From the NCBI GenBank assembly GCA_964652255.1, contig CAZZBM010000001.1:530985-594984 (forward strand): a stretch of 64,000 nucleotides of DNA, read 5' to 3'. The notes beneath the pieces are model-generated. The model was given only the letters and a program-made list of their open reading frames with translations. It was not told the DNA's origin and did no database searches. The stretch comes from an uncultured bacterium (lineage in GTDB: Bacteria; Bdellovibrionota; Bacteriovoracia; Bacteriovoracales; CAZZBM01). Below, in pieces: positions 15,318 to 53,445 of this stretch. The translations under genes and the position numbers were made by a program. The first letter of the stretch is position 1, and every line of letters begins with the position of its first letter.

Positions 15318-15394
15318 TGGCGCAACCGGTACGATTCGAACGTACGACCTTCTGATTCGTAGTCAGATGCTCTATCCAACTAAGCTACGGCTGC
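15318..15394 (-). tRNA. tRNA-Arg (anticodon ACG), CCA encoded
   Basis: Hand-folded cloverleaf on the reverse strand: acceptor GCAGCCG/CGGTTGC, D arm GCTTAGTTGGATAGAGC, anticodon stem TCTGA/TCAGA with loop CTACGAA, T arm GTACG-TTCGAAT-CGTAC, 3' GCCA. Confidence 0.93.
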
Positions 15395-15455
15395 TCTAAT
15401 GAACTTTATTATGTAGATTCTTTCATATCTGTCAATAAAATGCTAAGAAAAGTTC

Positions 15456-15767
15456 ATGAATTTTTTATCCTTTCTTTTTAGGGACCCTATTGATTATAAA
15501 AAATTATATACAAAAGAAGTCATTCTTTTAGATGTAAGGACAGTTGAAGAATTTTCTAGAAAATCAATTCAAGGGAGTCAGCATCTTCCTTTACAAGAAT
15601 TAGGAGAAAAATATAAAAAATTAGATAAAAATAAAACTTATTTTATCTATTGTGCCAGTGGTGGAAGAAGCAGAACAGCCATGAATTTTTTAAAAAAACA
15701 AGGCTTTAATCATGTTTATAACACAGAAAGTGTGGAAAAAACAAAAACTATTATTGAATCAAAATGA
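15456..15767 (+). CDS. Single-domain rhodanese (sulfurtransferase)
   Basis: Active-site loop YCASGGRS (CxxGxRS) in a ~100 aa alpha/beta domain. Confidence 0.8.
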   Translation: MNFLSFLFRDPIDYKKLYTKEVILLDVRTVEEFSRKSIQGSQHLPLQELGEKYKKLDKNKTYFIYCASGGRSRTAMNFLKKQGFNHVYNTESVEKTKTIIESK

Positions 15768-15946
15768 ATTTTACAAAAATTTTTTTCTTATTTTTATTAG
15801 CCTTTATCATAAGAGATAAACCCATGGCTCAAAATTCAATCAATGTAGCATTTGAAATAATACCAGTAGAAAATGCTACTAATGCAACAACTTCTCAACC
15901 AAGCTATATAATTAAAATAAATGCTCATGATAAAAAAAAATTTTAG
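15764..15946 (+). CDS. Signal-peptide-bearing N-terminal fragment of the downstream LRR protein (frame broken at A9)
   Basis: The ATG overlaps the rhodanese stop (ATGA). Hydrophobic N-terminus MNFTKIFFLFLLAFII. Ends ...GAT AAA AAA AAA TTT TAG in the A9 tract. Confidence 0.5.
   Translation: MNFTKIFFLFLLAFIIRDKPMAQNSINVAFEIIPVENATNATTSQPSYIIKINAHDKKKF
15932..15940 (+). repeat. A9 homopolymer at a frame break
   Basis: Nine consecutive A read directly. It separates the two frames of the LRR gene. Confidence 0.95.
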
Positions 15947-16047
15947 ATTTAAGCTCTTTAAATATAGAGTATTTAAATTATTTAAAGACTTTTGATACGG
16001 TAGAAATATTAATCTTAAAAAATAATAATTTAACCTCAAAAGAGTTA

Positions 16048-16887
16048 ATGAATTTAAAGGATCATTTTCCTAATTTAAAAGAATTAGATCTATCCAGAAA
16101 TAATATTAAAGATTTAAACTTTTTAAACAATCTTACAAAATTAGAAAAACTTGATGTTAGCGGCAATCCTCTTGATGATCTGGTTATTGAGAATCACCCT
16201 TCTCTTAGGGAATTTATTTTTATGTCTAAACCAGGTTATTTTAAAAGATTTTCCTTTAAAAACTTACCTTCTTTAGAAAAAATTTATGTTACTATTGACG
16301 AAGAAAGTCCAGCTGGGTCTTTCATTTATCCAAGAGAACCTTTTGAGTTAAGTTTTTTACCTAGCTTAAAAACACTATATATGGACGCTATTTCTCATTA
16401 TAAATTTCATCTTGAAGGAGATTTTTCTGCTTTAAAATATTTAACTTATAGACAGACTAAAGTTCGTTATCTTGATTTTCTTTATTTTTTTCCTAATATT
16501 GAAGTTTTGGATCTTTCTTATAATGACATTGATGAATTTAACCCTTTAACATATTTAAAAAAATTAAAAGTTTTAGATCTCACTTTTAATCCCTTAATTG
16601 ATCTTCCAGAAAATTTATCTCCCGTTTTGCAGATTGTTTTTTTAGATAGAAGTACTGTGACAGGACTTCATCCTCTTTTAGCGATTCCCTCTGTTGAATT
16701 TATTTCTGCTGATTCATGCTCTTGGATTAAAAAGATGATTCCAGAATATAAACCTATTATGGGGGAAAAAGAAGTTAGTCTTTATGGGTCTTTTAGTGGA
16801 TTAACAACACAGGAAAGAAAAACTATTAATGTAGAAAAAAAAGCTCTAGAAGAAGTAGGAGTTAGGGTTTATACTGATGATTTTTAA
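16048..16887 (+). CDS. LRR protein (frame is open and LRR-like from 15934)
   Basis: LRR units LKELDLSRNNIKDLNFL, LEKLDVSGNPL, IEVLDLSYNDIDEFNPL and LKVLDLTFNPL. The upstream in-frame sequence KKILDLSSLNIEYLNYLKTFDTVEILILKNNNLTSKEL is also LRR-like. Confidence 0.75.
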   Translation: MNLKDHFPNLKELDLSRNNIKDLNFLNNLTKLEKLDVSGNPLDDLVIENHPSLREFIFMSKPGYFKRFSFKNLPSLEKIYVTIDEESPAGSFIYPREPFELSFLPSLKTLYMDAISHYKFHLEGDFSALKYLTYRQTKVRYLDFLYFFPNIEVLDLSYNDIDEFNPLTYLKKLKVLDLTFNPLIDLPENLSPVLQIVFLDRSTVTGLHPLLAIPSVEFISADSCSWIKKMIPEYKPIMGEKEVSLYGSFSGLTTQERKTINVEKKALEEVGVRVYTDDF

Positions 16888-16944
16888 AATTTAATAGGAT
16901 TAAAAATTTGATCTTTTTTTTAAAAAATGTCATCATAAGCCTTT

Positions 16945-17127
16945 ATGTTTTTTATTATTTTTTTTCTAAAGCTCTTTCTTCTTTCTTGCTCTACCCAGCA
17001 AGATAAACAATTTGATCCTCTTGATTCTTTTGTACCTTCTACAAACAAAGATGTTCAAGCTTATGATTCAGAAGAAGAGGTTTCAGTTCATACTTTAGAT
17101 AAAGATGAACGTTCTATATTTGATTGA
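16945..17127 (+). CDS. Small putative lipoprotein (60 aa)
   Basis: MFFIIFFLKLFLLSCSTQQ has the lipobox LLSC. The acidic tail overlaps the nagZ 3' end convergently. Confidence 0.4.
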   Translation: MFFIIFFLKLFLLSCSTQQDKQFDPLDSFVPSTNKDVQAYDSEEEVSVHTLDKDERSIFD

Positions 17128-18077: not shown

Positions 18078-18375
18078 AAACTCTTACTTCATAAAGAAAA
18101 TTTTCGATTTTTTCTGAACCATGAAAAGAATAAGTGTACTCTTTTTTTATAAGATAAAAAGTATTACCAAAAAGTTCCAAGCTGTTTTTTTCTTCTATTT
18201 TTTTTAAAACATTTTTTTTATTAGGACCAGACATAATAATGCTTGCAATAAAATTACATTTTTTTGGTTCTTTTTCTGAAAAATTAACAGAAGAGAGATC
18301 TCTAGAAGAAGAACAAGATTGAAGACTAAGAATGATTATAAAGATCATCTGGATGAATAAAATAAATCTTTTCAA
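18049..18375 (-). CDS. Hypothetical lipoprotein
   Basis: MKRFILFIQMIFIIILSLQSCSSS has a lipobox. Confidence 0.45.
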   Translation of the reverse strand: MKRFILFIQMIFIIILSLQSCSSSRDLSSVNFSEKEPKKCNFIASIIMSGPNKKNVLKKIEEKNSLELFGNTFYLIKKEYTYSFHGSEKIENFLYEVRVYDCKKKSYN

Positions 18376-18898
18376 GATTTATAAATCTTAAGCTTAAGAT
18401 CTTAAAAATAAAACTACTTATTTTAAAAAAGTCATTTTCTAATGGAGTTGAAGAAATTTTTTGTGAGACGTTATTTTTTTCAAATTTGATAAAATTAATT
18501 TTATTTTCTCTGATAATATATTTTTTTAAAAGTATTTCTTTTCTATCCAAAAGAAGATCTTCAAATTTACTTGGCAGAGGAAGATAAATCTTTTTTATTT
18601 TTGATTTTTTTTTAAAAAAATTTTTTATTTTAAAAAATTGATTCTTTTTTTTATCTTTTATGTAGGAATTATCAATCAAAATATTAGCTTGTACGGCTGG
18701 TTCTTCTAGAAGATTATGATTGTTGATGAGTTGATTATAAGAATCAGGTGATGGAATTTCAAATCCAGCTCTTTCTTCATTGAAATAAACTTGTAAAAAT
18801 ATTTTTTTTGAATTTTTACTATTATTAAAGGGTAGTGATTTGAAGTATTGTTTCTCTAATTCAGAACAAGAAAAAATAAAAAAACAAAGAAAAAACAT
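18326..18898 (-). CDS. Hypothetical lipoprotein
   Basis: MFFLCFFIFSCSELEK has the lipobox IFSC. Lys/Asn-rich. Confidence 0.45.
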   Translation of the reverse strand: MFFLCFFIFSCSELEKQYFKSLPFNNSKNSKKIFLQVYFNEERAGFEIPSPDSYNQLINNHNLLEEPAVQANILIDNSYIKDKKKNQFFKIKNFFKKKSKIKKIYLPLPSKFEDLLLDRKEILLKKYIIRENKINFIKFEKNNVSQKISSTPLENDFFKISSFIFKILSLRFINLEKIYFIHPDDLYNHS

Positions 18899-19055
18899 CA
18901 GAAACTTATCTTAGTGGAGTTTTTTGCTTTAATACAGTAAATAAGTCTTTTTTACCAAAAAAGGAGGCTCTGTAGACAGAGTCTTTTTAAAAGAGTAGAG
19001 TTCAAGAAAAAAAGATTTTTGAAAAAAGAGTTCAAAGATCTAAAGGAGTGGATCA

Positions 19056-20135
19056 ATGATGTCTTTTCAAGAATTTTTATTGCCAGAAAAACTAAAAAAT
19101 AATGTAAAAAAAATGGGTTTTAATGAACCTACCCCTATTCAAGCTAAGGTTTTACCTTTGGCTTTTCAAGGGCATGACGTGATTGGATTAGCCCAAACAG
19201 GCTCAGGAAAAACAGCTGCTTATGCTATTCCAGGAGTTAAATATCTTTTGGAAAACAATCAAGGCAAAATTTTGATTTTAGTTCCTACAAGAGAACTAGC
19301 CTCTCAAGTGGCTGAAGTCTTTAAAAAGTTAATTTTAGATACTTCTTTAAAACAAGCCTTATTAGTGGGTGGTGTTCCTATGTATAAGCAGATAAGAGAT
19401 CTTAAATTTAAGCCAAGAATTTTTATTGGAACTCCTGGAAGAATTAATGATCTTTTAAAAAGAAAGATGCTTAGATTAGAAGATGTTCAGTATTTAGTTT
19501 TTGATGAAGTGGATAGAATGTTAGATATTGGGTTTCAAGTGCAAGTTGATGAAATCTTAAAATACTTAAAACAAAAAAAACAAACTTTATTTTTTTCAGC
19601 TACTTTAAGTCCTAAAGTCTCTAGTTTAGTGAAAAACTACTTAATAGATCCTAAAAAAATAACCATAGGAACAATTAATAAACCAGTGGCTTTATTAGAG
19701 CAAAAAACAATTAAAGTAAATGAGAAAGAAAAGTACACATCTTTAAAAGATGCTTTAATAAAGATTGATGGATCAAGTTTAATTTTTGTTAAAACAAAAC
19801 ATATGTCAGCTAACTTAGCAAAAAAACTCAAGGAAGATGGTTTTTTCACAGAAGCTTTTCATGGTGATTTAAGTCAAGGTGCTAGAAATAGAGCCATACA
19901 GTCTTTTAAGAGAAATGATAAAGCTATTCTAGTAGCGACAGATATCGCTTCTAGAGGACTTGATATTGATCATATTAAATGTGTTTTTAATTTTGATCTT
20001 CCTCATAATCCAGAAGATTTTGTTCATAGAGTGGGTAGAACTGCTAGAGCAGGAAGAACAGGTCAGTCTATTACATTTTTATCAAGAAAAGATGAATTTC
20101 TTTGGAAAAAAATCTTAAGGTTAATCAATAGTTAA
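19056..20135 (+). CDS. DEAD-box ATP-dependent RNA helicase (core only)
   Basis: Q motif FNEPTPIQ, then AQTGSGKT, PTRELA, DEVD (motif II variant), SAT, and HRVGRTARAG. Confidence 0.9.
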   Translation: MMSFQEFLLPEKLKNNVKKMGFNEPTPIQAKVLPLAFQGHDVIGLAQTGSGKTAAYAIPGVKYLLENNQGKILILVPTRELASQVAEVFKKLILDTSLKQALLVGGVPMYKQIRDLKFKPRIFIGTPGRINDLLKRKMLRLEDVQYLVFDEVDRMLDIGFQVQVDEILKYLKQKKQTLFFSATLSPKVSSLVKNYLIDPKKITIGTINKPVALLEQKTIKVNEKEKYTSLKDALIKIDGSSLIFVKTKHMSANLAKKLKEDGFFTEAFHGDLSQGARNRAIQSFKRNDKAILVATDIASRGLDIDHIKCVFNFDLPHNPEDFVHRVGRTARAGRTGQSITFLSRKDEFLWKKILRLINS

Positions 20136-20951
20136 ATTTTCTTCTTTTAAATAAGGAAGAGTTTTTAAAACTTCTTCCTTATTAATATCATTATTTCTAA
20201 TGTTTAAAATTTCTAAAGATGGGAGTTCCTTTATTGGAGTAACATCACAGATATAGTTATTTTCTATGTTAAGATAAGTAAGTTTTTTTTTATCTTGAAG
20301 ATAATCTAAATCTGTTAAAGAGTTGTTCATTAAGGAAAGATATCTTAATTGGCTAAGATTACGTAGACCTATGAGTTGATGTATCTCATTTCCATTAGCT
20401 ATCAGAAAATGAAGATTAAAAAGAATCCTTGCAAAATTAATATTATTTAAAGCATTGTAACTCACAGAAAGAGTTTTAAGTTGATGTAATTTACCAATAG
20501 AGTTAATATTTTTTGGATAAGTACCATTAAGATTTAAAAAAATAATAGATTTTAAATTTTCAATTTCTTTTAAATCTACATTCTTATTATAAGAAAGATC
20601 TAAAAATTTTAAATTTGGTAAAGAATAAAAATTAATTCTAAAAAAAAGTTTCTTTTTTGAGAGCTTAAGAACAATCATTTGAGAGAGAGTCTTGATTTTA
20701 TTATTTCTTAAATTGAGGTCTTCAAGAGAAGAAAGTTCATGAAGAGAAGAAAGATCTGAAATAGCATTAAAACTAAGATTTAGTCTTTTTAGTTTTTTAA
20801 CCTTTTCTAAGCCTTTTGTACTTGTAATTTTATTATAACTTAAATCAAGAACTTCAAGATCAGGATAAGAGGATAAATCAGGAATTTCAGTATATCCTTT
20901 TTTAGAAAGATTAAGTTCAGTGGTACTATGAACTATCCATAAAAAAAACAT
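20121..20951 (-). CDS. LRR protein
   Basis: About ten 22-residue repeats (LEVLDLSYNKITSTKGL, LKRLNLSFNAISDLSSL, LEDLNLRNNKIKTL, LKFLDLSYNKN, LRYLSLMNNSLTDLDYL, LTYLNIENNYICDV, LEILNIRNNDI). Confidence 0.78.
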   Translation of the reverse strand: MFFLWIVHSTTELNLSKKGYTEIPDLSSYPDLEVLDLSYNKITSTKGLEKVKKLKRLNLSFNAISDLSSLHELSSLEDLNLRNNKIKTLSQMIVLKLSKKKLFFRINFYSLPNLKFLDLSYNKNVDLKEIENLKSIIFLNLNGTYPKNINSIGKLHQLKTLSVSYNALNNINFARILFNLHFLIANGNEIHQLIGLRNLSQLRYLSLMNNSLTDLDYLQDKKKLTYLNIENNYICDVTPIKELPSLEILNIRNNDINKEEVLKTLPYLKEENLTID

Positions 20952-22172: not shown

Positions 22173-23231
22173 TTAATAAAAATCAAAACTTAAAGAATAA
22201 GCTCCTTTTTCTTCGAATTTCAAAGACACTTGCCTATCAGTAGAGCCTTTATTGAAAATATATGGAAAAGAAGGTGATAAGTTGCTGAAGTTTGTAGTCT
22301 CGTACTCATATTGAATTGTTGGAGGAGAGAACTTAAAATTTAATGATATATCTTTAGGTTTTTTGTCTCCAACGTCTTTAATTGTGAAGCCACTAGGATG
22401 ACCTGAATCTCTATATAGATCGATATATGTCCTAAGTGTCTTGGAAGAATTTTTGTATAGCTTAAAAATAATACTAATATACAAATATGTGTTTATAAAA
22501 AAAGTTGAATAATATAAAGCAATTTTTAGTTTTTCTAATGAAGGAAAAAGTTGAGGTTGTTCAATATCTATTAGATAGCTTGAAGCAGATATACTATTTT
22601 TTTTCAATTTCAATTTTATTTAATATATAAAAATCAATGGATAATAACTTTAAAGAAGAAAAAAAAGTAGAATTAGTTTTTTTATCAAAAAGTAATTCAG
22701 TACTTAATATGTTATAAAAACGACGTTTTGGTGTAATTTGTTGAAAACAAGAAGAATCTTTTAAATAGATTGTTAGAAACAATTTTTCTAGCTTGTTGAG
22801 TTTGCTTATATCTTTAAAAAGTGCTAAATATTCATCGGAATTATCTATATATACGCTAAATGCAAGTGTATTAAAATAGAAGATATGTTCCATGGGGTTG
22901 AGTAAAGAATATAAATTCTTTTTATCTTTTAAAACTTTTGAATAAGATAAAATTCCATTAAACTTAGTTGAGTCATTATTAATTATTTTTTTATATCTTC
23001 TTCAAAGCTTGCTACATCTGAAAATATATTTTGAAAATATGATGCTATCGTGGGCTCAAGTACATATGAATTAGAGTCAGAAGGAGCTTAAAATGACAAA
23101 AAGTCAGAATTTGAGAAACCAAAAGTAGATGTTTCATTAGAAAAAGTAATGTAGGGATATGTGAATGTAAACGGAGTATTATCTTCGTTATTTGAAAATA
23201 ATATAAAAAAGATATTAAAAAAAATTATTAT
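22173..23231 (-). pseudogene. Decayed secreted-protein gene: no ATG, one in-frame TAA, one frameshift in A8
   Basis: Track ORFs 22594-22893 and 22173-22613 join if the A8 tract (plus-strand T8 at 22597-22604) loses one base. The frame of 22594-22893 continues upstream through TAA at 23090-23088 to a signal-peptide-like IIIFFNIFFILFS. That peptide begins at ATA (23231) 6 nt after AAGGA. Confidence 0.55.
22597..22604 (-). repeat. A8 (coding strand) homopolymer at a frame break
   Basis: Eight consecutive T on the plus strand, at the junction of two overlapping ORFs. Confidence 0.95.
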
Positions 23232-30771: not shown

Positions 30772-30850
30772 AACAATTTTATAAATGGACTTTTTTATAG
30801 AGAAAAGCCCTTTTAGACTTTTTTCCTAAAAGTCGATAATTTTTTTATCT

Positions 30851-32965
30851 ATGTCAAAGAAATCTTATCCTTGTCTTGTTGTTACTGATAATTATCTTCT
30901 ACCGAAAATGAAAAAAGAATTTTCATTTAAGAAAAAAGAATCTTTGGAAATTTTAAAAAAAACTGAAAAACATCTTGTTCTTCTTTATCGTGATCAAATA
31001 AAATCTATTCTTTGTGAGATTGTAAGAAAAGAAACAGATAAAGTCGTTTTGAAAGGGATTTCTTTTGTAGAAGTCTTAGATAAGAATAAAAACTTAGTTC
31101 AAGTTGAAGAGATTAAAGAAGAATATGAGTTAGCTTTAGGAGAAAAACTTCAAGGAGATCTTTTAAAACAATCTATTGTGGATCTTCTTATTCATGAAAA
31201 AAGTGAAGAACTTAGTCCACAACAAATTTTAGATTTAAGATCTATTGATAGTTTGTTTGATTTTTTTAATGAAACAGTTTCAAAGTTAAATCTTTCACCG
31301 GAGTTGGAAAAAAAATTTTTTAATGAAAAAAATATTATTAAAAAACTAAAGACTCTTCAAGAAAGTCTAGAAAAGAAAAATGATTCTTTACCAAGACTTT
31401 TTGAGTTTCATCCTTTTTTTTCACCTAGAAATAATCCTTATGAAGAAAAATTAATGAATAAAAAATTTACTTCTGAAGTGAAAGAAGAACTTTTAAAAGA
31501 AGCTAAAAAATTAGATCGCTTGCCTCAAGAATCACAAGAATCTTTTGTGATTAAGCAATATTTAGACTTTGTTCTTTCTCTTCCTTGGGGAAATTTAAAA
31601 GAAGGGGCATTGGATTTAAAAGAAATAGAAAAAAAATTTCATTTGAGTCACTATGGTTTAGATGAAGTCAAAGAAAGAATTTTGGACTATCTTTTTAGTT
31701 ATTCTTTAAAATTACAAAGTCCTATTCTTTGTTTAGTTGGTCCCTACGGAGTAGGGAAAACAACTTTTGTTCAAAACCTAGCTGAAGCTATTGATCGTCC
31801 TTTTGAAAAGATTAGTTTGGCTGGTTTGAGTGATGAAGCTGAAATTAGAGGTCATAGAAAAACTTATGTAGGTTCAATGCCAGGAAGAATTTTATCTCTT
31901 TTAAAAAAAGTTCAAGTAGACAATCCTGTTATTCTTCTTGATGAGGTTGATAAGGTAGCTAAACAAACTCGTGGTGATGTCTATGGAGCACTGTTAGAAT
32001 TACTGGATCCAAGTCAGCAGAGTCAATTTAGAGATCATTTTCTTGGTTTAGATTATGATCTTTCAAAAGTTTTATTTGTTTGTACAGCTAATCATATTGA
32101 AGATATCCCTAGAGCTTTAAAAGATAGAATGGAATTTATTTATTTAGAGGGATTTTCTTTAGAAGAAAAAAAGATTATTGCTCAAAACTATTTATTACCT
32201 AAAATTAGAAAGGAATACAAATTAAAAGATTTTGAATTTAGTCCTAAATTAATAGAAAAGATTATATTAAATTTAGATCAAGAATCAGGGGTAAGACAAT
32301 TAGAAAAATTTTTAAGATCATTTACAGAAAGGCAAATAAGAAAAAATTTTTTAGGTCCTTTTGAGGAACAAGATTTATTACCTTTTTTAAAGAAAAAAGA
32401 TCTTCCTCTTTTAGATCGTTATCCTGGTAGCTTTGATCTTTTAGCTTATACGCCCTATGGTGGGGTTCTTATTCCTTTAGAAGTTCTTCTTATTGATGGA
32501 ATGAAAATGGAACTTACTGGTGAAATTGGAGAAACTTTTAAGGAATCTATTAAGGTAGCTTATTCTTTAGTAAAACGTTCTTTAAAATCTTTAGGTTTAG
32601 TTGAAAATTTTTTTGATCAAAAAAGTTTTCATATTCATGTTCCTCTTATTCTTGGAGAAAAACAAGGTCCTAGTGGTGGTCTTCCTCTGTATGTTGCTAT
32701 GATTTCAAGCTTGATGAATAAATCTTTACCACAAGATTTAGTTATGAGTGCAGAATTGAGTCTTCAGGGTCAAATACTTCCTGTTGGAGGAATTAAAGAA
32801 AAACTATTGGCTGCTCAAAGAGCTGGAAAAAAAAGAGTTTTTCTTTCTGTTCATAATCAAAAAGATATTCCTCTAAATCTTGATTTAGAGGTTTATTTTT
32901 TTCATTCTATTCAAGAAGTTCTTTCTTTGCTATTCTTTGAAGAAAGAGAATTACAAGTCATATGA
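30851..32965 (+). CDS. lon: ATP-dependent Lon protease
   Basis: Walker A GPYGVGKTT, Walker B LLDEVDK, catalytic Ser in QGPSGG, and Lys in GGIKEKLLAAQRAG. Confidence 0.9.
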   Translation: MSKKSYPCLVVTDNYLLPKMKKEFSFKKKESLEILKKTEKHLVLLYRDQIKSILCEIVRKETDKVVLKGISFVEVLDKNKNLVQVEEIKEEYELALGEKLQGDLLKQSIVDLLIHEKSEELSPQQILDLRSIDSLFDFFNETVSKLNLSPELEKKFFNEKNIIKKLKTLQESLEKKNDSLPRLFEFHPFFSPRNNPYEEKLMNKKFTSEVKEELLKEAKKLDRLPQESQESFVIKQYLDFVLSLPWGNLKEGALDLKEIEKKFHLSHYGLDEVKERILDYLFSYSLKLQSPILCLVGPYGVGKTTFVQNLAEAIDRPFEKISLAGLSDEAEIRGHRKTYVGSMPGRILSLLKKVQVDNPVILLDEVDKVAKQTRGDVYGALLELLDPSQQSQFRDHFLGLDYDLSKVLFVCTANHIEDIPRALKDRMEFIYLEGFSLEEKKIIAQNYLLPKIRKEYKLKDFEFSPKLIEKIILNLDQESGVRQLEKFLRSFTERQIRKNFLGPFEEQDLLPFLKKKDLPLLDRYPGSFDLLAYTPYGGVLIPLEVLLIDGMKMELTGEIGETFKESIKVAYSLVKRSLKSLGLVENFFDQKSFHIHVPLILGEKQGPSGGLPLYVAMISSLMNKSLPQDLVMSAELSLQGQILPVGGIKEKLLAAQRAGKKRVFLSVHNQKDIPLNLDLEVYFFHSIQEVLSLLFFEERELQVI

Positions 32966-33746
32966 AACTTTATCTTGTTGGTGGGTCTGTAAGAGATCTT
33001 CTACTAAAAAAAAAATTCTAGATTTTGATTATACAGTAGTGAATTCTTTTGAAGAAGAATTTTTTAAACATGGATATAAAAAAAAAAGTGATTATTATCC
33101 AGTTTATCTTCATCCTAAGTATCCTCAAGTGACTTTAGCTTTAGCAAGAAAAGAAAAGTTATTAGATTTTTCTAAAAGATTATTTTCCTTTCAAATAAAA
33201 GATGTTTCTTTAGAAGAAGATCTTTTTAGAAGAGATTTTACTGTTAATGCAATAGCTTTTGGAAAAAAAATTATTGATCCTTATGGAGGGCTTCAAGATT
33301 TAAAAAAAAAACTACTGAAACCTTTAGGGATTCACTTTAAAGAAGATCCTTTAAGGTTTTTCAGAGCAGCTCGTTTTGCTGCTCAGCTAGATTTTGAATT
33401 AGATTTAAAAGAGACTTATTTTGGAGAAGTGAGTCTAGGAAAGCAAGAGGAAGAATTAAGAAAAGTGTTAAGTTTAAAAAAACCTCAAAAATTTTTTATT
33501 TTATCTTCAGAGTTAAAGATACCTTTTTTACATGTAGTAGAAAAAAAATTTTTAACAGGCCTTGAACAATTCTTAGGTTTTAACCAAAGAGTTATTCTTT
33601 TTAATTTTTTTTATCCTAAAAGTCCTATTTTTAAAAATAAAAAACAAGACCATCTTTTAAAAAAAATTTTAAGTGAAAACTCTTTACATAGTTTTGTTGA
33701 TCGTGAAGAATGGTTAAGGTTAAGATCTTTTTTATGGGTAAATTAA
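32962..33746 (+). CDS. cca: CCA-adding tRNA nucleotidyltransferase (short, no HD domain), reading frame broken in an A10 tract
   Basis: The ATG at 32962 overlaps the lon stop (ATGA) and encodes MKLYLVGGSVRDLLLKKK, then hits TAG at 33019. The track ORF (32937-33746) carries the rest in another frame (ILDFDYTVV...RRDFTVNA...EDPLRFFRAARFAA). One extra A in 33006-33015 joins them. Confidence 0.8.
33006..33015 (+). repeat. A10 homopolymer at the cca frame break
   Basis: Ten consecutive A read directly. Confidence 0.95.
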
Positions 33747-33883
33747 TTTTTTATTTTTTCTTTTATTTTTTATTATTCTCTTTTCCAGTTAAGGGGAAAC
33801 CTCTTTTTAATGTTTTACAAGAACATAGTCACTTTTATGTAGATCGATTTTATGAAAAAATCTTATCAAAAATCAATAATTAA
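33734..33883 (+). CDS. Possible small secreted protein (49 aa), below the track cutoff
   Basis: ATG at 33734. Encodes MGKLIFYFFFYFLLFSFPVKGKPLFNVLQEHSHFYVDRFYEKILSKINN with a hydrophobic N-terminus. No Shine-Dalgarno. Could be chance in AT-rich DNA. Confidence 0.2.
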   Translation: MGKLIFYFFFYFLLFSFPVKGKPLFNVLQEHSHFYVDRFYEKILSKINN

Positions 33884-33918
33884 GCTTTAATTTTAATGAA
33901 TCGATAACTCTTTTATGA
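33881..33918 (+). repeat. 38-nt upstream/start module, copy 1 (taagCtttaattttaatgaatcgataactcttttatga)
   Basis: Identical to 34806-34843 except for one base. Confidence 0.9.
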
Positions 33919-34808
33919 AATTATTATTATTATTATTATTATTTACAGCTTGTTCATCAGGGTCAACTTCTAGTTCTGTTGTTAGTTCTAGTGAATCTTT
34001 TTATAGTTTTAAGTATTTTGAAAATGATGCTTTAATATCTTCTGGAGCTGAATCAATTTTAAGTTTAAGCCAAAAAACAAGTGTTGTTATTTCTTTTCAA
34101 GATTATGTTCATATTTATATTAAACTAGATTTGAACAACCTGAATAGCCCTACCAACACTGTGACAAGTCCTTATGTGGCTAATATTGCTTATGCAGATC
34201 CTTTAATATGTTTAGATGGCGAAGACGGTTATGATCCTATTTATTCTGGAGCACCATTTACTATTCCTGAGGGGCTTACTGAGGAAGATATTCAATCTGG
34301 ATTCGCTGCCCATATTTTATCTTGTAAAAATTTTTTATTAGGTTCTATTCTTCCACTCTCACCAAAAGATCCTAGTACTTATTTATTAAAACCTAATATG
34401 TCCATTTTTAAAATGGATGGAACATTTTTAGATATCTCTGTGACAGGAACAATAAATTGGAGTCCATTAAGTGGATATCTTCATATTGACCCTTATAATC
34501 CTCAAACAGCTCAAGAAGAAAATTTAGAACTATTTGTTTACCTTAATTCTGGAGCTATTTTATTTGATGAACAACTTATTACATGTGAAGGATGTGCTAT
34601 GAGTATAGCGTTAGAAAATTCTCCTAATTTTTCCTACAATGATGTTGTATATAAAATTACCATTAATAGAACTAATAACTCTGAAAAAGGTGTTCTTACT
34701 ATCCCAGAAGGTGTTTTTCAAGATTCAGAGGGAAATAATTACTTAGGGTTTTATCCTTTGCATTTACCTTGGGGAGAACCAATTGTTAAATTTGCCCCAG
34801 AAATTTAA
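33915..34808 (+). CDS. Surface lipoprotein, paralog 1 of a tandem pair (C...P-E-G-x-F family)
   Basis: MKLLLLLLLFTACSSGSTSSS carries a lipobox and a Ser tether. Shares blocks with the N-terminal ~290 aa of the next gene (TGTINW, LITCEGCAMSIA vs LITIGNSCNMSIS, TIPEGVFQDSEGN vs EFAEGAFVNSED). Confidence 0.6.
   Translation: MKLLLLLLLFTACSSGSTSSSVVSSSESFYSFKYFENDALISSGAESILSLSQKTSVVISFQDYVHIYIKLDLNNLNSPTNTVTSPYVANIAYADPLICLDGEDGYDPIYSGAPFTIPEGLTEEDIQSGFAAHILSCKNFLLGSILPLSPKDPSTYLLKPNMSIFKMDGTFLDISVTGTINWSPLSGYLHIDPYNPQTAQEENLELFVYLNSGAILFDEQLITCEGCAMSIALENSPNFSYNDVVYKITINRTNNSEKGVLTIPEGVFQDSEGNNYLGFYPLHLPWGEPIVKFAPEI
33921..33941 (+). repeat. (TTA)7 trinucleotide repeat encoding Leu7 of the signal peptide
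   Basis: Seven exact TTA units in frame. Confidence 0.95.
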
Positions 34809-34843
34809 GTTTTAATTTTAATGAATCGATAACTCTTTTATGA
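34806..34843 (+). repeat. 38-nt upstream/start module, copy 2
   Basis: See 33881-33918. Confidence 0.9.
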
Positions 34844-34857
34844 GATTTTTATTATTA

Positions 34858-34864
34858 TTTTTTT
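34858..34864 (+). repeat. T7 homopolymer inside a signal-peptide coding region, at a frame break
   Basis: Seven consecutive T. With T8, the ATG at 34840 reads MRFLLLFFLSLVSCS in frame with the long ORF. Confidence 0.95.
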
Positions 34865-34868
34865 ATCC

Positions 34869-36545
34869 TTGGTGAGTTGTTCTTTAAGTAGCAACAATCA
34901 ATCTTTAAGTTCATCAAATACTTCTGAGGAATTATACAAGTTTTTTTATTATACTCAAAGTGGGGATTATCTAGGATCAAGCTCTAATCTTAGTGATTCT
35001 TTAGAATTAAACTCTGGTGGTTCAGCTAATATTTTTGTAGTTTTATCTGATTATGCACACATGACTATTTATCCTCCTTATGTTGAATCAACAAATTTTC
35101 AAGCTAATGCCAAACTTCCACAGTGCATGGATGGAGTCGTTGATACTGATAACCTAGAGTTCATCCCTGAATTGATGGAATATTTAGGAGGAGTGATGCC
35201 TCCAGTGTATGAAGGAGATTTTTCTTTACCTGATGGATTTACTGATCCAACTCCAGAAGAAAGACAATTAAATTTTATTCCTTGTAAAGTTTGGCTTTTT
35301 AGAGATTTTAAACCTATTGATGCTAGTGAATCATCTACTTTTAGTATTAAAAATACAGGTGTCTTTTTTGCTGATGGATCCAGTCCATCAATAGATTTTA
35401 CAGGGACCATTAATTGGGATGTTCTTGGAGGATTAACTACTTTAGAGACTTATCCTCAATATACCCAAAAACATGATCCTAATGGGACAGAGATTACTTT
35501 AACTTTTCAGCAAGGATTTAGATTATATGATGAAGACTTAATTACGATAGGAAATAGTTGTAATATGAGTATTTCTCCTAATGATAATGATTTTCATACA
35601 GAGTTTACTATTACAATTACTCCAAAGATTCCAACTGCATTATCTTCTTGTACTTTAGAGTTTGCCGAGGGAGCTTTTGTTAATAGTGAAGATGTTTCTT
35701 CTTTGCCTATTTCACCTATTGAAATTGATTGGGCTGATAGAATGTTTTTTACAGTGGAATTTCCTGAAGATCCAGTAAATAAGAATCCTCCTGTGGATCC
35801 AGTAAGTGTGATTAAAAAAATTCCTTATGGTGATTTAACTTGGAATGGAACAAATGTGATGTATGAAGGAGTACCTTATACTCCTACGACAACAAAAATA
35901 GAAGTAAATTTAATTCCAACTTATAGATCTATTGAAGAAGATAAGTTTGAACTGGCTACAGGTTTAATTGAATTTTTAGATGAGTCTAATTCAACAAATG
36001 TTATTGTCCCTGATGAAGAAGATTTTATTAATATTTTTGATGAAGATGGAGAATCAAATAAGATGACGTACTATTTAAATCCTATAGCATCTTTTCAGCA
36101 TATTATAGGTGATACTGCTCCTATCGATTTAACTTTTAAATTAGATTTTTTCACTGAAACTTTATCTTATGCTGGAGCTGAGATTGAAGTTGGTTCTCAA
36201 CCAACAGATCAAAAAAGTTTTTCTTGGAGTACACTGTTTGATATTAATAATGTTTTAAAAGGAGTTGATACAGGGTACACTTCAGGAACTACTCAAATAG
36301 TTAGGGTGATCTTACCTTTAGGTTCAAGTGTGGATACTGATTTAATAAGTACAACCTGTAATAGTATTCAATCTGCAACTAGTGTGGTTGGTAGTAACAA
36401 TATGGTTTTTGATATCATTGTTGAAAATCTAGTCGATGAAAACTGCACAGTTACCTTTGATAAAGGAGCCTTCATTGGCATAAACTATGATATTAAGTCT
36501 CAGGCTATTGCTCCTGTTGAAATTACTTTTACTGGAACTACCTAA
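34869..36545 (+). CDS. Large surface lipoprotein, paralog 2 (three C...G-A-F type modules). The canonical ATG at 34840 is out of frame by one base.
   Basis: The track ORF starts at TTG and reads MVSCSLSS, so only the lipobox Cys remains of a signal peptide. The homologous ATG with its upstream module lies at 34840. Confidence 0.6.
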   Translation: MVSCSLSSNNQSLSSSNTSEELYKFFYYTQSGDYLGSSSNLSDSLELNSGGSANIFVVLSDYAHMTIYPPYVESTNFQANAKLPQCMDGVVDTDNLEFIPELMEYLGGVMPPVYEGDFSLPDGFTDPTPEERQLNFIPCKVWLFRDFKPIDASESSTFSIKNTGVFFADGSSPSIDFTGTINWDVLGGLTTLETYPQYTQKHDPNGTEITLTFQQGFRLYDEDLITIGNSCNMSISPNDNDFHTEFTITITPKIPTALSSCTLEFAEGAFVNSEDVSSLPISPIEIDWADRMFFTVEFPEDPVNKNPPVDPVSVIKKIPYGDLTWNGTNVMYEGVPYTPTTTKIEVNLIPTYRSIEEDKFELATGLIEFLDESNSTNVIVPDEEDFINIFDEDGESNKMTYYLNPIASFQHIIGDTAPIDLTFKLDFFTETLSYAGAEIEVGSQPTDQKSFSWSTLFDINNVLKGVDTGYTSGTTQIVRVILPLGSSVDTDLISTTCNSIQSATSVVGSNNMVFDIIVENLVDENCTVTFDKGAFIGINYDIKSQAIAPVEITFTGTT

Positions 36546-36553
36546 GCTACTAA

Positions 36554-36587
36554 TAATTAAGACTGAAGAATTCTTCAGTCTTAATTA
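36554..36587. terminator. 34-nt perfect palindrome (17-bp stem, EcoRI-centred) between convergent genes
   Basis: taattaagactgaagaa / ttcttcagtcttaatta are exact reverse complements. Located at the convergent 3' ends: about 9 nt past the stop of the plus-strand lipoprotein gene, while its right arm overlaps the stop and last codons of the minus-strand ORF (36581-36961). No long U tract. Confidence 0.5.
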
Positions 36588-37190
36588 AAATCATGATTCC
36601 AAAGTTTTTTAATAAAATCATCTAATGAAAGAATAAAAAGATTTTCTGTTATTTTTCTAGAATGCTTTTCTAAGGAAACAACATAATCTTTTTTAAATGT
36701 TTTGTTGTGAAGATATTTTACAATAGTTTTTAATTCTTGAAAGGAAATGTGTTCTTTAGCTTTAATCTCTAGAGGAATTTCTTTATTTAAAATAAAATCA
36801 ATTTCTTCTTTTTGTAAAGTTCTAAAATGTTCTATAGATAAAGATCTGTTGAGGTAGCTTTTGTAACTAAAAAGTTCATTATAAATAAGATGCTCAAAAG
36901 AAAAACTAAATTCAGGTGTTTTTTGAACAATATTTTTTCTTTTGATTAAAGTATTAATCAAGCCTAAGTCAAAGAAAAAAAATGTAGAACTTTTAACAAG
37001 TTTTCTCGAAGAAGAATCAAAAAAAGGTAAAACTTCTTGGATAAGAAGAGTGTCCTTTAAAAGATCAAAATAATGATCAACAGTTGTTCTTTTGACTTGA
37101 GAATCATTAGCAAGAGAGCTAAATTCAATTAATTGTCCTGATGATAAAGCTGCACTGTTGTCATTTTTATTAATTATTTGACAATAAGAA
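36581..37190 (-). pseudogene. 5'-truncated remnant of a COG1373-type AAA+ ATPase (winged-helix + DUF4143 nuclease-like C-terminus)
   Basis: The open frame upstream of the track ORF reads SSGQLIEFSSLANDSQVKRTTVDHYFDLLKDTLLIQEVLPFFDSSSRKLVKSSTFFFFDLGLIN, followed by EEIDFILNKEIPLEIKAK. This pattern recalls DUF4143 proteins. No ATPase domain or start codon is present, and it abuts the neighbouring gene. Confidence 0.55.
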
Positions 37191-51608: not shown

Positions 51609-51730
51609 AAGTATCAAACTTAATCATGATGCCTACTTGGGTTCTTCTTTTAGGTCTTATTGTTGTTTTTTTTATTGTGAAGACTTTTATTTATATTAAA
51701 GATAAAGAAAGAGAAGATGAAGAAAGCTAA
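51605..51730 (+). CDS. Small single-TM protein (41 aa), ATGA-coupled to coxIV
   Basis: MKVSNLIMMPTWVLLLGLIVVFFIVKTFIYIKDKEREDEES. Below the track cutoff. Confidence 0.3.
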   Translation: MKVSNLIMMPTWVLLLGLIVVFFIVKTFIYIKDKEREDEES

Positions 51731-52173
51731 TGATCTATGTCTTCTTCTACTGTAATGACGACTATTTTAGAGGGACTTAAATAAGAATCAATTGAGAATA
51801 ATCCTTCAGGCAGCTGAATAGAGATATTTTGATCTTTAATTAAGATATCTGAGCAGTCTTCGTTGGAAAGAGTCCTGATTTTATAAGAATAGTTTTGAGG
51901 AGGCGAGATATCAACAATATCTATAGTCATCTCATTGTCAAAACCAAGGGTGCAATTTTCTTCATTGAAAGATAGAAAAATTTCTTTTGAGGTATTTAAT
52001 ATGGGATTAGGGTTTTGATTAAAAACAGGATTAAAATGCACATTAAAAATGAGATCAAATTCTTTATCTATGGTGATGTCATGGATTAAGATGGGAGAAA
52101 GACCAGAAGAGCTATTTATGAAGGAAGAATGATTAAAATTAGAGCAAGAAAAGAGGAGTAAAAATAAGAACAC
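51727..52173 (-). CDS. Two-cysteine lipoprotein family member A
   Basis: GTG start. Lipobox LFSC. Pattern NCTLGF...x32...EDC...IQLPEGLF. Confidence 0.55.
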   Translation of the reverse strand: MFLFLLLFSCSNFNHSSFINSSSGLSPILIHDITIDKEFDLIFNVHFNPVFNQNPNPILNTSKEIFLSFNEENCTLGFDNEMTIDIVDISPPQNYSYKIRTLSNEDCSDILIKDQNISIQLPEGLFSIDSYLSPSKIVVITVEEDIDH

Positions 52174-52222
52174 AAAAAATTCTATCGTCTTTTTAAGAGT
52201 AAAACTTAACTAAAGACCCTTA

Positions 52223-52863: not shown

Positions 52864-52893
52864 ATAATCTTTATCGATTGAATAAAAAAATTA

Positions 52894-53364
52894 CTAAAGC
52901 ATATTTTCATATTGCCAAGGGGTGAGTCCTGTTTGAGTGAATTCTGTATTGAAAACTCCATTTACAGAAACAGTTTCTGTTGGAATAGTAATGATAGCAG
53001 TTTGACTAGACCAAACATCAATCAAGTTACAATCTCCTATAGCACTTAAATTTGCATGATAGATGGTTTTACCAGCAATACCTTCTAGTTCTGGATCCTG
53101 CGGAATAATCTGATTATAAATTTCTAGAGCATAAGTACAAGTGACGGGACCACCTTCTGTGTCATCAGTAATGCTAATGGTAGGATTTTGAGTAAAAATG
53201 ATATCTTCATGGGCACCATAAATAACAAAAAAAAAGCCTTCTGTAGTGAAAAGTCCTTCGATAAGAGAAGAGTCTACTTCTGAGCTAGAAGAGGTATATT
53301 TTGATTCATTATTCCAATGAAAATCAGCACAAGAAGATAAAAATAAACATAATAAAAATCTCAT
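52894..53364 (-). CDS. Two-cysteine lipoprotein family member C
   Basis: Lipobox LSSC. Pattern TCTYALE...x35...GDC...ITIPTETV. Confidence 0.55.
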   Translation of the reverse strand: MRFLLCLFLSSCADFHWNNESKYTSSSSEVDSSLIEGLFTTEGFFFVIYGAHEDIIFTQNPTISITDDTEGGPVTCTYALEIYNQIIPQDPELEGIAGKTIYHANLSAIGDCNLIDVWSSQTAIITIPTETVSVNGVFNTEFTQTGLTPWQYENML

Positions 53365-53445
53365 AAATTCTTCTATCGGAAAAAAAACAAAAAAACTAAA
53401 AACTAATCTAATTTGGAAAAATTTTTAAGTTTTTGTCAAAAAAAC

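What the first reader, a model, noticed from the sequence alone, without database searches (positions are those of the whole stretch)
34840..34880. T7 tract inside a lipoprotein signal peptide puts the canonical ATG out of frame (candidate phase-variation switch)
Behind the duplicated upstream module, ATG 34840 reads ATG AGA TTT TTA TTA TTA TTT TTT TAT CCT TGG TGA, giving MRFLLLFFYPW and a stop. The 558-aa ORF is in the next frame and retains only ...LVSCS of a signal peptide, so the track has to start it at TTG. Adding one T to the T7 run (34858-34864) gives MRFLLLFFLSLVSCSLSSNNQ. That is a textbook lipoprotein signal peptide, and it resembles family member C (MRFLLCLFLSSC). The gene is therefore OFF by one homopolymer unit. 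This is the arrangement used by slipped-strand contingency genes for surface antigens in Mycoplasma, Campylobacter and Helicobacter.
Basis: partly seen in the sequence, partly recalled or inferred. Interest (0 to 1): 0.7.

Follow-up and report, generated by a model that had tools for sequence, protein, structure and literature searches.

The report
One-base frameshift in a lipoprotein gene
A surface-lipoprotein gene in a small, AT-rich relative of predatory Bdellovibrio-like bacteria has lost one T from an ordinary run of T's, which disconnects it from its start codon; at least two other genes nearby carry the same kind of damage, so it looks like routine gene erosion rather than a purpose-built on/off switch.

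Summary
ATG 34840 reads MRFLLLFFYPW and stops. The T7 run is at 34858-34864. One extra T gives MRFLLLFFLSLVSCS, fused to a 568-aa protein. That N-terminus aligns with the intact lipoprotein signal peptides of all three known homologues. The ATG also sits behind the same 35-nt module as the paralogue's ATG.

The phase-variation reading is not supported beyond that:
- T7 is an ordinary run here: 301 A/T runs of 7 or more in 64 kb, about 255 of them inside intact ORFs and reaching T11.
- At least two other genes in the window carry the same lesion, a run one base short. They are cca (A10, 33006-33015) and a secreted LRR protein (A9, 15932-15940).
- The region holds gene remnants, and the genome is small (contig 746 kb, 29% GC).
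- An independent Logan assembly of SRR12404947 shows the same three run lengths, so an assembler artefact is unlikely. Read-level heterogeneity could not be examined.

Most likely this is replication-slippage damage to a dispensable gene, either a young pseudogene or one expressed only leakily. It is reversible in principle but not a dedicated switch.

In passing: the duplicated upstream module matches the Bdellovibrio FliA/sigma-28 attack-phase promoter (TTAAG-N16-CCGATA). It ends 8 nt before the ATG with no Shine-Dalgarno sequence.

The parts
34805..34831 (+). FliA/sigma-28-type promoter of gene B (TTAAG-N16-TCGATA). This is the core of the 'duplicated upstream module'.
   Evidence: It matches TTAAG-N16-NCGATA exactly. 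The Bdellovibrio attack-phase consensus is TTAAG-N16-CCGATA (PMC3627812). The module is 93% identical to the one upstream of gene A.
34840..34875 (+). Ancestral start codon (ATG 34840-34842) and the 11-codon dead-end frame MRFLLLFFYPW, with stop TGA at 34873-34875.
   Evidence: The ATG is in register with ATG 33915 of paralogue A. There is no Shine-Dalgarno sequence, and the promoter -10 element ends 8 nt upstream.
34858..34864 (+). T7 run. T8 (Phe-Phe-Leu, TTT TTT TTA) or T5 would put the ATG in frame with the long ORF.
   Evidence: The run has the same length in the Logan contig L001.
34869..36545 (+). Body of lipoprotein gene B: 558 codons from TTG 34869, or 557 aa from GTG 34872 in the public call. 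The lipobox L-V-S-C is at 34869-34880, with the Cys codon TGT at 34878-34880.
   Evidence: The homologues are P0002 (40% identity, MKYIIFILLAGCS), P0003 (MRFLFFFLLNCS) and A297.
36554..36587 (.). Perfect 34-nt palindrome just after the stop of B. It is a likely bidirectional terminator.
   Evidence: I6, 100% complementary. The Logan contig L001 ends there.
33880..34808 (+). Paralogue A297: the same promoter module (33880-33906), ATG 33915, an intact signal peptide MKLLLLLLLFTAC encoded by (TTA)7 at 33921-33941, and a stop at 34806-34808.
   Evidence: (33% identity to B over 192 aa).
32962..33746 (+). cca (tRNA nucleotidyltransferase), carrying the same kind of lesion. ATG 32962 reads MKLYLVGGSVRDLLLKKK, then the A10 run (33006-33015) is one base short.
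   Evidence: With one A added, the Pfam PolyA_pol match grows from profile positions 52-125 (41.7 bits) to 1-125 (69.5 bits). The Logan contig L084 also has A10.
15764..16887 (+). Secreted LRR protein gene with the same kind of lesion. ATG 15764 opens a signal peptide and 58 codons, then the A9 run (15932-15940) is one base short. The LRR frame is open from the run to 16887.
   Evidence: The Logan contig L083 also has A9.

Best explanation
Gene B is a lineage-specific lipoprotein gene driven by a sigma-28-type promoter that sits directly in front of an ATG with no Shine-Dalgarno sequence. Its mRNA is probably leaderless or nearly so.

The hydrophobic core of its signal peptide was encoded by Phe-Phe-Leu (TTT TTT TTA, a T8 run), and one T has been lost by replication slippage. 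Ribosomes starting at ATG 34840 now make an 11-residue peptide and stop. The 558-codon body has lost its start codon, its positive n-region and most of its hydrophobic core, so no exported lipoprotein is made from the genomic sequence as it stands.

This is a real genomic -1 frameshift of a generic kind. It is one of at least three one-base-short A/T-run frameshifts in this 64-kb window of a small, 29%-GC genome in which such runs occur about every 200 bp. It is best read as recent erosion of a dispensable surface-protein gene, that is, a young pseudogene.

Low-level rescue is possible, by RNA-polymerase insertion of an extra U or by a -1 slip of tRNA-Phe on the U run. Reversion by replication slippage is also possible. 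Nothing marks this tract as a dedicated switch.

Shown: the frameshift, the ancestral start, the homology of the signal peptide, the other frameshifts and the abundance of runs.
Inferred: promoter function, leaderless transcription, slippage as the cause, and the expression state.
For: - Ancestral start and signal peptide: module identity and register with paralogue A. The N-terminal alignment with P0002, P0003 and A297 has M1, L9, C14 and S15 invariant.
- The sequence is real at consensus level. Three Logan contigs of SRR12404947 (L001, L083, L084, 9 kb in all) are 100% identical to the window, including T7, A9 and A10.
- Generic nature: 301 A/T runs of 7 or more in 64 kb, against 56 expected under independent bases and 196 under a first-order Markov model. 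About 255 lie inside ORFs that stay in frame, up to T11.
- The same lesion occurs in cca and in the LRR gene.
- Erosion context: a DUF4143 C-terminal fragment lies next to B. In the related organism (L082) only a 12-residue remnant of A survives, and P0003 carries an in-frame TAG. Both tRNA genes in the window encode their CCA ends, so cca is dispensable. B evolves fast, with dN/dS about 0.6 against P0002, compared with 0.08-0.15 for neighbouring genes.
- Literature: in AT-rich reduced genomes, poly(A)/poly(T) indels are the first step of gene erosion and are sometimes rescued by transcriptional slippage (PMC3017870). Single-base insertions by RNA polymerase dominate at A/T runs and rise exponentially with run length (PMC5574713).
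Against: - The 558-codon ORF is still completely open. Chance would give this with P about 1e-21 at this base composition. The promoter is also still identical to that of the intact paralogue. The lesion is therefore either very recent or the gene is still under selection, which also fits a reversible switch or a maintained, slippage-rescued frameshift.
- Two of the three frameshifted genes encode secreted or surface proteins, and two of the three lesions lie near the 5' end. That is the pattern expected of contingency genes.
- The closest N-terminal relative, P0003, carries an in-frame T11 run at the equivalent place, so a T run in this signal peptide is a recurring feature.
- Read-level heterogeneity was not examined.
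Confidence: 0.5

Rival explanations
1. Phase-variable contingency gene. The T run changes length by slipped-strand mispairing at a useful rate, so the population holds ON (T8 or T5) and OFF (T7) cells. That would vary a surface lipoprotein exposed to a host or prey. The sequenced consensus happens to be OFF.
For: - The tract sits in the 5' coding region of a surface-protein gene, and a single unit toggles the frame.
- The ORF and the promoter are otherwise intact.
- The gene belongs to a tandem, fast-evolving paralogue family whose 5' cassette is conserved.
- A second secreted protein (LRR) is also OFF at a homopolymer.
- P0003 has T11 at the same place.
- From my own knowledge: Mycoplasma lipoprotein and adhesin genes such as M. 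fermentans P78 and M. hominis Vaa switch on coding-region poly(A) runs of only about 7-9 nt.
Against: - T7 is not exceptional here. There are 255 comparable or longer runs within intact ORFs of the window, including essential genes.
- None of the other six lipoprotein candidates has a run of 7 or more in its signal peptide.
- A non-surface gene, cca, carries the same lesion.
- There is no length polymorphism in the only data available. Both assemblies give T7, and the Logan contig passes through the tract without a break.
- Gene remnants nearby point to decay.
Confidence: 0.2
2. A maintained frameshift that is routinely corrected during expression. RNA polymerase adds a U in the U7 run, or tRNA-Phe slips -1 on A-UUU-UUU-U. 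Either would give a reduced but functional amount of the full lipoprotein, as described for frameshifted genes of Buchnera and Blochmannia.
For: - The correction needed is +1 nt in the RNA or -1 by the ribosome, which is the direction polymerase slippage favours at A/T runs (PMC5574713).
- All three lesions in the window need the same correction.
- cca and the LRR gene have A-AAA-AAA slippery runs of 9-10 nt followed closely by a stop codon.
- The ORFs are otherwise intact, as in Blochmannia (PMC3017870).
Against: - A 7-nt run is short. Slippage rises exponentially with run length, and the documented rescued genes have runs of about 9 or more.
- No stimulatory RNA structure lies downstream (z = -0.07).
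- The heptamer is imperfect, because the P-site codon would re-pair on AUU.
- A transcriptome-wide survey in Buchnera found no case of a restored reading frame.
- Conservation of the frameshift across strains cannot be tested.
Confidence: 0.15
3. Sequencing or assembly error. The real genome has T8 and the gene is simply intact.
For: - All three frameshifts are one base short in a homopolymer, the typical direction of systematic under-calling.
- The NCBI assembly and the Logan assembly probably derive from the same read set, so they are not independent with respect to read errors.
Against: - A different assembler gives identical run lengths and 100% identity over 9 kb, with contigs up to 12 kb. 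That implies accurate reads.
- About 255 other runs of 7-11 nt in ORFs are in frame, including 37 of 9 nt or more. There is therefore no systematic under-calling.
- T7 is the run length least prone to error.
Confidence: 0.1
4. The annotated TTG/GTG-initiated protein (MSCSLSS...) is the real, functional product. It might be made by termination-reinitiation, because the short ORF's TGA stop overlaps GTG 34872 (GTGA).
For: - The public annotation calls this start.
- The overlap of the stop TGA 34873-34875 with GTG 34872-34874 is the classic translational-coupling arrangement.
Against: - That product would lack any signal peptide and carry the lipobox Cys at position 3. All homologues have an N-terminal signal peptide with that Cys invariant.
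- There is no Shine-Dalgarno sequence.
- A surface or periplasmic beta-rich protein stranded in the cytoplasm is unlikely to function.
Confidence: 0.05

Closest known systems
Homopolymer-frameshifted genes of AT-rich reduced genomes (Buchnera, Blochmannia; PMC3017870 and the work on poly(A) tracts cited there)
   Same: Small, AT-rich genome with a very high density of A/T runs. A single indel lies inside a run in otherwise intact ORFs. Several genes are affected at once, and both erosion and transcriptional-slippage rescue are possible outcomes.
   Different: The run here is only 7 nt, whereas documented cases are mostly 9-12 nt. The organism is a Bacteriovoracia relative, not an insect endosymbiont. 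No transcript data exist, and conservation of the frameshift is unknown.
Coding-region mononucleotide phase variation of surface lipoproteins and adhesins (Mycoplasma fermentans P78, M. hominis Vaa; poly-G/C genes of Campylobacter and Helicobacter). Recalled from my own knowledge, not checked in the library.
   Same: A short homopolymer in the 5' coding part of a lipoprotein gene, with one unit toggling the frame. The gene family keeps a conserved 5' cassette while the mature part diverges.
   Different: No length polymorphism has been shown. The tract is not longer or rarer than the genome background. The same lesion occurs in a housekeeping-type gene. The tract lies inside the signal peptide rather than in the mature part.
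FliA (sigma-28) attack-phase promoters of Bdellovibrio bacteriovorus, TTAAG-N16-CCGATA (PMC3627812)
   Same: The module upstream of A and B reads TTAAG-N16-TCGATA. The same motif precedes three further lipoprotein ORFs and lon in the window. In Bdellovibrio this regulon includes cell-surface proteins.
   Different: Here the -10 element ends only 8 nt before the start codon and there is no Shine-Dalgarno sequence, which suggests leaderless mRNAs. No transcription start sites have been mapped, and fliA was not looked for.
Programmed -1 ribosomal frameshifting on U-rich heptamers (for example U UUU UUA)
   Same: A U7 run, with the downstream ORF in the -1 frame.
   Different: The heptamer in the zero frame is A UUU UUU, an imperfect P-site re-pairing. 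There is no downstream stimulatory structure. The homologues use a plain in-frame ATG.

Membership tests
Bacterial lipoprotein precursor (Lgt/LspA substrate) | N-terminal Met, then Lys or Arg within the first residues, then an uncharged hydrophobic stretch | tested here: met
   Met only in the T8 (or T5) reconstruction: M-R-FLLLFFLSLV. Not met by the sequence as it stands, where the ORF begins at LVSC or SC.
Bacterial lipoprotein precursor (Lgt/LspA substrate) | Lipobox [LVI][ASTVI][GAS]-C with an invariant Cys | tested here: met
   L-V-S-C lies at 34869-34880. The Cys and the following Ser are invariant in all four family members. Cys is at position 14, one short of the usual lower limit of 15 (PROSITE rule, from memory). 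All candidates here have Cys at 11-14.
Bacterial lipoprotein precursor (Lgt/LspA substrate) | Lgt, LspA (and Lnt) encoded in the genome; acylation of the protein | not testable with these tools
   Only 64 kb of the genome is available, and there are no protein data.
Simple-sequence contingency locus (phase variation by slipped-strand mispairing) | A repeat tract in the promoter or 5' coding region whose length sets the reading frame | tested here: met
   T7 lies at codons 7-9 of the ancestral frame. T8 or T5 is in frame, T7 is out.
Simple-sequence contingency locus (phase variation by slipped-strand mispairing) | A tract that is unusually long or over-represented relative to the rest of the genome or to comparable genes | tested here: not met
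   There are 136 runs of 7 nt and 119 longer runs inside ORFs of the window. Housekeeping genes carry up to T11. The other lipoprotein genes have no run of 7 or more in their signal peptides.
Simple-sequence contingency locus (phase variation by slipped-strand mispairing) | Tract length polymorphic within a population or between strains | tested here: inconclusive
   Two assemblies of one sequencing run both give T7. No other strain was found in 5.8 billion proteins, 1.84 billion representatives or the JGI metagenomes.
Simple-sequence contingency locus (phase variation by slipped-strand mispairing) | The gene product is surface-exposed or interacts with the host | tested here: inconclusive
   It is a predicted lipoprotein of an orphan family with no Pfam match. 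The structure model is unusable (pLDDT 37.5). Localisation is inferred only.
Homopolymer frameshift in an AT-rich reduced genome (erosion, with or without transcriptional-slippage rescue) | A small AT-rich genome with a high density of poly(A)/poly(T) runs in coding regions | tested here: met
   29% GC. The contig is 745,960 bp. There are 4.4 runs of 7 or more per kb of ORF, an excess over the composition models.
Homopolymer frameshift in an AT-rich reduced genome (erosion, with or without transcriptional-slippage rescue) | A single indel inside the run with the ORF otherwise intact, and several genes affected | tested here: met
   B (T7), cca (A10) and the LRR gene (A9) are each restored by adding one base.
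Homopolymer frameshift in an AT-rich reduced genome (erosion, with or without transcriptional-slippage rescue) | A mixed mRNA pool containing frame-corrected transcripts, or the frameshift conserved across strains | not testable with these tools
   No transcriptome is available and no second strain was found.
FliA/sigma-28-dependent promoter (Bdellovibrio attack-phase type) | TTAAG-N16-CCGATA upstream of the gene | tested here: met
   TTAAG-N16-TCGATA lies at 34805-34831 and at 33880-33906. The pattern gives 10 matches with at most one mismatch, against 3.7 expected, and no shuffle out of 100 reached 10. Seven of the 26 CGATA[AG] sites lie 6-11 nt before ORF starts. The consensus is from PMC3627812.
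FliA/sigma-28-dependent promoter (Bdellovibrio attack-phase type) | A mapped transcription start and dependence on FliA | not testable with these tools
   No RNA data are available, and fliA is not in the window.
Programmed -1 ribosomal frameshift site | An X XXY YYZ heptamer in the zero frame plus a downstream stimulatory structure | tested here: not met
   The zero-frame heptamer is A UUU UUU, so only the A-site tRNA re-pairs perfectly. The 100 nt downstream fold no better than shuffled sequence (z = -0.07).

The most novel reading that the evidence does not exclude
A reduced-genome, probably host-associated Bacteriovoracia lineage uses short A/T runs near the 5' ends of surface and secreted protein genes as stochastic ON/OFF switches. 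The candidates are the sigma-28-driven lipoprotein B and the LRR protein. These would be the first contingency loci described in Bdellovibrionota. The switching would act on leaderless mRNAs, where the 5'-terminal AUG leaves no alternative start.
Probability: 0.15. Interest if true: 0.55.

Novelty: new member of a known kind. Interest (0 to 1): 0.27.

Why it matters
For annotation, the public gene call (GTG start, 557 aa, no signal peptide) misdescribes the locus. It is a frameshifted lipoprotein gene. Two neighbouring calls, cca and the LRR protein, are likewise truncated at homopolymers.

Biologically, the locus shows that this unusually small, AT-rich relative of predatory bacteria is accumulating one-base deletions in A/T runs of dispensable genes. 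That is the first step of gene loss known from insect endosymbionts.

If read-level data showed mixed run lengths, the same locus would become evidence for surface-antigen switching in a phylum where none is known. As it stands it is an ordinary lesion with a good mechanistic explanation.

Tried and rejected
- Searching for other strains or orthologues to compare run lengths. The 5.8-billion-protein search found only the protein itself. A full HMMER scan of 1.84 billion representatives found only P0002 and P0003, both on one Logan contig of a related organism, plus the paralogue A297. 81 Bacteriovoracia loci around the cytochrome b gene contain no homologue. Two JGI metagenome scans, one with protein patterns and one with the exact promoter module, found nothing. 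A four-sequence alignment was too divergent to search with.
- Structure prediction of B from a two-sequence alignment gave pLDDT 37.5 and pTM 0.26, mostly beta. It is unusable, so no fold search was run.
- Pfam gives nothing for A, B or the small lipoproteins.
- Programmed ribosomal frameshifting was rejected for lack of a downstream structure and of a perfect heptamer.
- The generic sigma-70 promoter scan of the locus was uninformative, with 19 sites against 16 expected.
- cca could not serve as an 'essential gene' to prove rescue, because both tRNA genes in the window encode their CCA ends.
- Testing whether the frameshifts avoid housekeeping genes gave only a weak signal. At least 161 of about 258 runs lie in recognisable housekeeping ORFs with no frameshift. 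Three out of three lesions falling outside them has P of about 0.05 on my own rough estimate, and the classification was made after the fact.
- Other ORF junctions flagged by the indel scan are ordinary gene boundaries: 8174, 18069, 26123, 49901 and 50764.
- Identifying the organism or sample from the literature failed. SRR12404947 is not cited in the library, and the sponge Bdellovibrionota MAGs of PMC9944714 differ in size and GC.
- The exact-protein look-up for Lon failed, because the Logan assembly breaks inside lon.
Full report
**Observation**

The sequence is as described. ATG 34840 opens ATG AGA TTT TTA TTA TTA TTT TTT TAT CCT TGG TGA, giving MRFLLLFFYPW and a stop at 34873-34875. The T run is seven bases, at 34858-34864. 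The long ORF is in the -1 frame. Its first possible start is TTG 34869 (558 aa). The public gene call uses GTG 34872 (557 aa, P0001). Adding one T yields a 568-aa protein beginning MRFLLLFFLSLVSCSLSSNNQ. Removing two T's also restores the frame.

**Why ATG 34840 is the ancestral start**

- The 58 nt at 34805-34862 are 93% identical to 33880-33937, upstream of the neighbouring gene A297. The 23-mer ending in ATG occurs exactly twice in the window against 0 expected. The two ATGs are therefore in register.
- A297 and B are paralogues, 33% identical over 192 aa.
- A full HMMER scan of 1.84 billion representative proteins found only three relatives. They are A297 itself and two proteins of a related organism: P0002 (562 aa, 40% identical, MKYIIFILLAGCS...) and P0003 (MRFLFFFLLNCS...).
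- In the alignment, the reconstructed N-terminus of B shares an invariant Met1, Leu9, Cys14 and Ser15 with all of them.
- The family therefore consists of lipoproteins with very short signal peptides, and B has lost its connection to its own.

**What the upstream module is**

- It reads TTAAG-N16-TCGATA (34805-34831; 33880-33906 for A). The experimentally derived consensus of attack-phase promoters in Bdellovibrio bacteriovorus, attributed to FliA/sigma-28, is TTAAG-N16-CCGATA (PMC3627812).
- The pattern is enriched in the window: 10 matches with at most one mismatch against 3.7 expected, and 0 of 100 shuffles reached 10.
- Six of those matches sit directly before ORF starts. These are A, B, three small lipoprotein ORFs at 51.7-53.4 kb, and lon.
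- Of the 26 CGATA[AG] sites, 7 lie 6-11 nt before a real start codon.
- The -10 element ends 8 nt before the ATG and there is no Shine-Dalgarno sequence. The mRNAs are therefore probably leaderless or nearly so. This is an inference, since no start sites have been mapped.
- It matters here because a leaderless mRNA depends on its 5'-terminal AUG. The internal TTG or GTG is unlikely to be used, except perhaps by reinitiation, since the short ORF's TGA overlaps GTG 34872 (GTGA). Such a product would lack a signal peptide.

**Is the sequence right?**

- Three contigs from an independent assembly (Logan) of run SRR12404947 are 100% identical to the window over 9 kb. L001 covers 34814-36585, L083 covers 14175-19887 and L084 covers 32395-33915.
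- These contigs include the T7 run and the two other runs discussed below. Contigs of up to 12 kb with no mismatch imply accurate reads.
- About 255 other A/T runs of 7-11 nt within ORFs are in frame, so there is no systematic under-calling.
- The two assemblies probably share their reads, so a read-level artefact is not excluded, but it is unlikely for a 7-nt run.

**Context**

- The organism is a relative of Bacteriovoracia. Its cytochrome b is at most 85% identical to any GTDB representative.
- Its GC content is 29% and the source contig is 745,960 bp.
- The window carries intact cell-wall, replication, translation and respiratory genes and three LRR proteins.
- Homopolymers are extremely common. 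There are 301 A/T runs of 7 or more in 64 kb, against 56 expected under independent bases and 196 under a first-order Markov model.
- T7 is the commonest class of such runs. The other six lipoprotein candidates have no run of 7 or more in their signal peptides.

**B is not the only casualty**

- cca starts at ATG 32962, overlapping the lon stop, and reads MKLYLVGGSVRDLLLKKK. It then falls out of frame at A10 (33006-33015). One extra A extends the Pfam head-domain match from profile positions 52-125 (41.7 bits) to 1-125 (69.5 bits).
- A secreted LRR protein starts at ATG 15764 and falls out of frame at A9 (15932-15940). The LRR frame is open from the run onward but has no start codon before 16048.
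- A fourth possible case is an 8-nt run at 22597-22604 (minus-strand gene) that separates a 99-aa and a 146-aa ORF. It is unverified.
- All three sure cases are one base short.
- Both tRNA genes in the window encode CCA, so cca is dispensable.

**Signs of erosion nearby**

- The ORF next to B is a C-terminal fragment of a DUF4143 protein.
- In the related organism only 12 residues of A survive, and P0003 has an in-frame TAG.
- B evolves fast, with dN/dS about 0.6 against P0002 (dS near saturation). Neighbouring genes give 0.08-0.15 and the cca C-terminus gives 0.34.

**Mechanism**

- The best-supported reading is a replication-slippage deletion of one T from a Phe-Phe-Leu T8 run. It is one instance of generic homopolymer frameshifting in an AT-rich, eroding genome, as described for Blochmannia and Buchnera (PMC3017870).
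- The gene is OFF for export.
- The open 558-codon frame (chance P about 1e-21) and the intact promoter show that the lesion is recent or that the gene is still useful.
- Leaky rescue is plausible but probably weak at 7 nt. Polymerase insertions dominate at A/T runs and rise exponentially with length (PMC5574713). There is no downstream RNA structure (z = -0.07), and the zero-frame heptamer A UUU UUU is imperfect.

**The contingency-gene reading**

- It remains possible. The tract lies in the 5' part of a surface-protein gene and one unit toggles the frame. The family has a conserved 5' cassette. P0003 carries an in-frame T11 at the same place.
- It fails the test that usually distinguishes such loci, a tract that stands out from the genome background. 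It also lacks any evidence of length polymorphism.

**Comparison and novelty**

- The locus works like the homopolymer-frameshifted genes of insect endosymbionts and meets the sequence-level criteria of that class.
- It resembles Mycoplasma coding-region poly(A) switches in layout, but membership is not established.
- It is a new example of a known kind of lesion in an unusual lineage.
- The more interesting by-products are the sigma-28-type, apparently leaderless promoters in front of a set of lipoprotein genes, and the very small AT-rich genome for this phylum.

**Limits**

There are no reads, no transcripts and no second strain. The structure model of B was unusable (pLDDT 37.5), and the family has no Pfam match.

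Noticed in passing
window 33880-33906, 34805-34831 (+); 52183-52209, 52872-52898, 53374-53400 (-); 30812-30838 (+): A TTAAG/TTTAG-N16-NCGATA motif equals the Bdellovibrio FliA/sigma-28 attack-phase promoter consensus (PMC3627812). It lies directly upstream of five lipoprotein ORFs and of lon. It ends 6-11 nt before the start codon with no Shine-Dalgarno sequence, which suggests leaderless or near-leaderless mRNAs. Lipoprotein ORFs at 53967, 54570 and 57256 instead have AGGAG ribosome-binding sites.
   Followed up: partly
window 32962-33746, run 33006-33015: cca (tRNA nucleotidyltransferase) is frameshifted at an A10 run 15 codons into the gene. One extra A restores the whole catalytic head domain. 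The public ORF call (TTG 32937, 269 aa) misses the GGxVRD motif. The run length is the same in the Logan assembly.
   Followed up: yes
window 15764-16887, run 15932-15940: A secreted LRR protein gene is split by an A9 run that is one base short. The signal peptide and 58 codons are in one frame and the LRR body in another. The sequence after the run (AAAATTYTAGATTT, encoding KKK-ILD) is nearly the same as at the cca frameshift. This is probably coincidence.
   Followed up: partly
window 22173-22893 (-), run 22597-22604: A 99-aa and a 146-aa ORF on the minus strand meet at an 8-nt homopolymer. Removing one base would fuse them into 239 aa. There is no Pfam match, so it is unclear whether this is one broken gene or two genes.
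   Followed up: partly
window 33921-33941: The signal peptide of paralogue A297 is encoded by a perfect (TTA)7 trinucleotide repeat (seven leucines). Slippage there would change the signal-peptide length without changing the frame.
   Followed up: no
window 36581-36961 (-): This 126-aa ORF matches only the C-terminal end of DUF4143 (profile positions 92-159 of 160). It is a remnant of a longer ATPase gene. The related organism (L082) lacks it altogether.
   Followed up: partly
window 51727-52173 (-): A lipoprotein-like ORF can start only at GTG (VFLFLLLFSCS...). It has no Lys or Arg n-region, although it has an exact sigma-28-type promoter 8 nt upstream. It is a distant paralogue of the small lipoproteins at 52.4-54.0 kb.
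   Followed up: partly
window-wide: 33915, 34840, 52863, 53364, 53967, 57256: All lipoprotein candidates have unusually short signal peptides, with the lipobox Cys at residues 11-16. The homologues in the related organism have Cys at 11-12.
   Followed up: no
L082 (Logan ERR12350087, 3548 bp): 2122-2150, 2722-2757, 2835-2845, 3432-3434: A contig from a related organism (72-77% nt identity) has a different or chimeric gene order. The minus-strand membrane-protein gene abuts the middle of cca, so the cca head domain is missing. It carries a 12-residue remnant of A297. P0003 there has an in-frame T11 run in its signal peptide and an in-frame TAG after codon 203, with the frame open beyond it.
   Followed up: partly
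window 12920-13921 (-), 16048-16887 (+), 20121-20951 (-): Three leucine-rich-repeat proteins lie within 8 kb of a small 29%-GC genome (source contig 745,960 bp). Its nearest relatives are predatory Bacteriovoracia with 2-4 Mb genomes. This suggests a host-associated, genome-reduced lineage.
   Followed up: no
window 32395: The Logan assembly of SRR12404947 breaks inside the single-copy lon gene, next to T6 and A6 runs. This could reflect read heterogeneity or low coverage. It was not resolvable with these tools.
   Followed up: no
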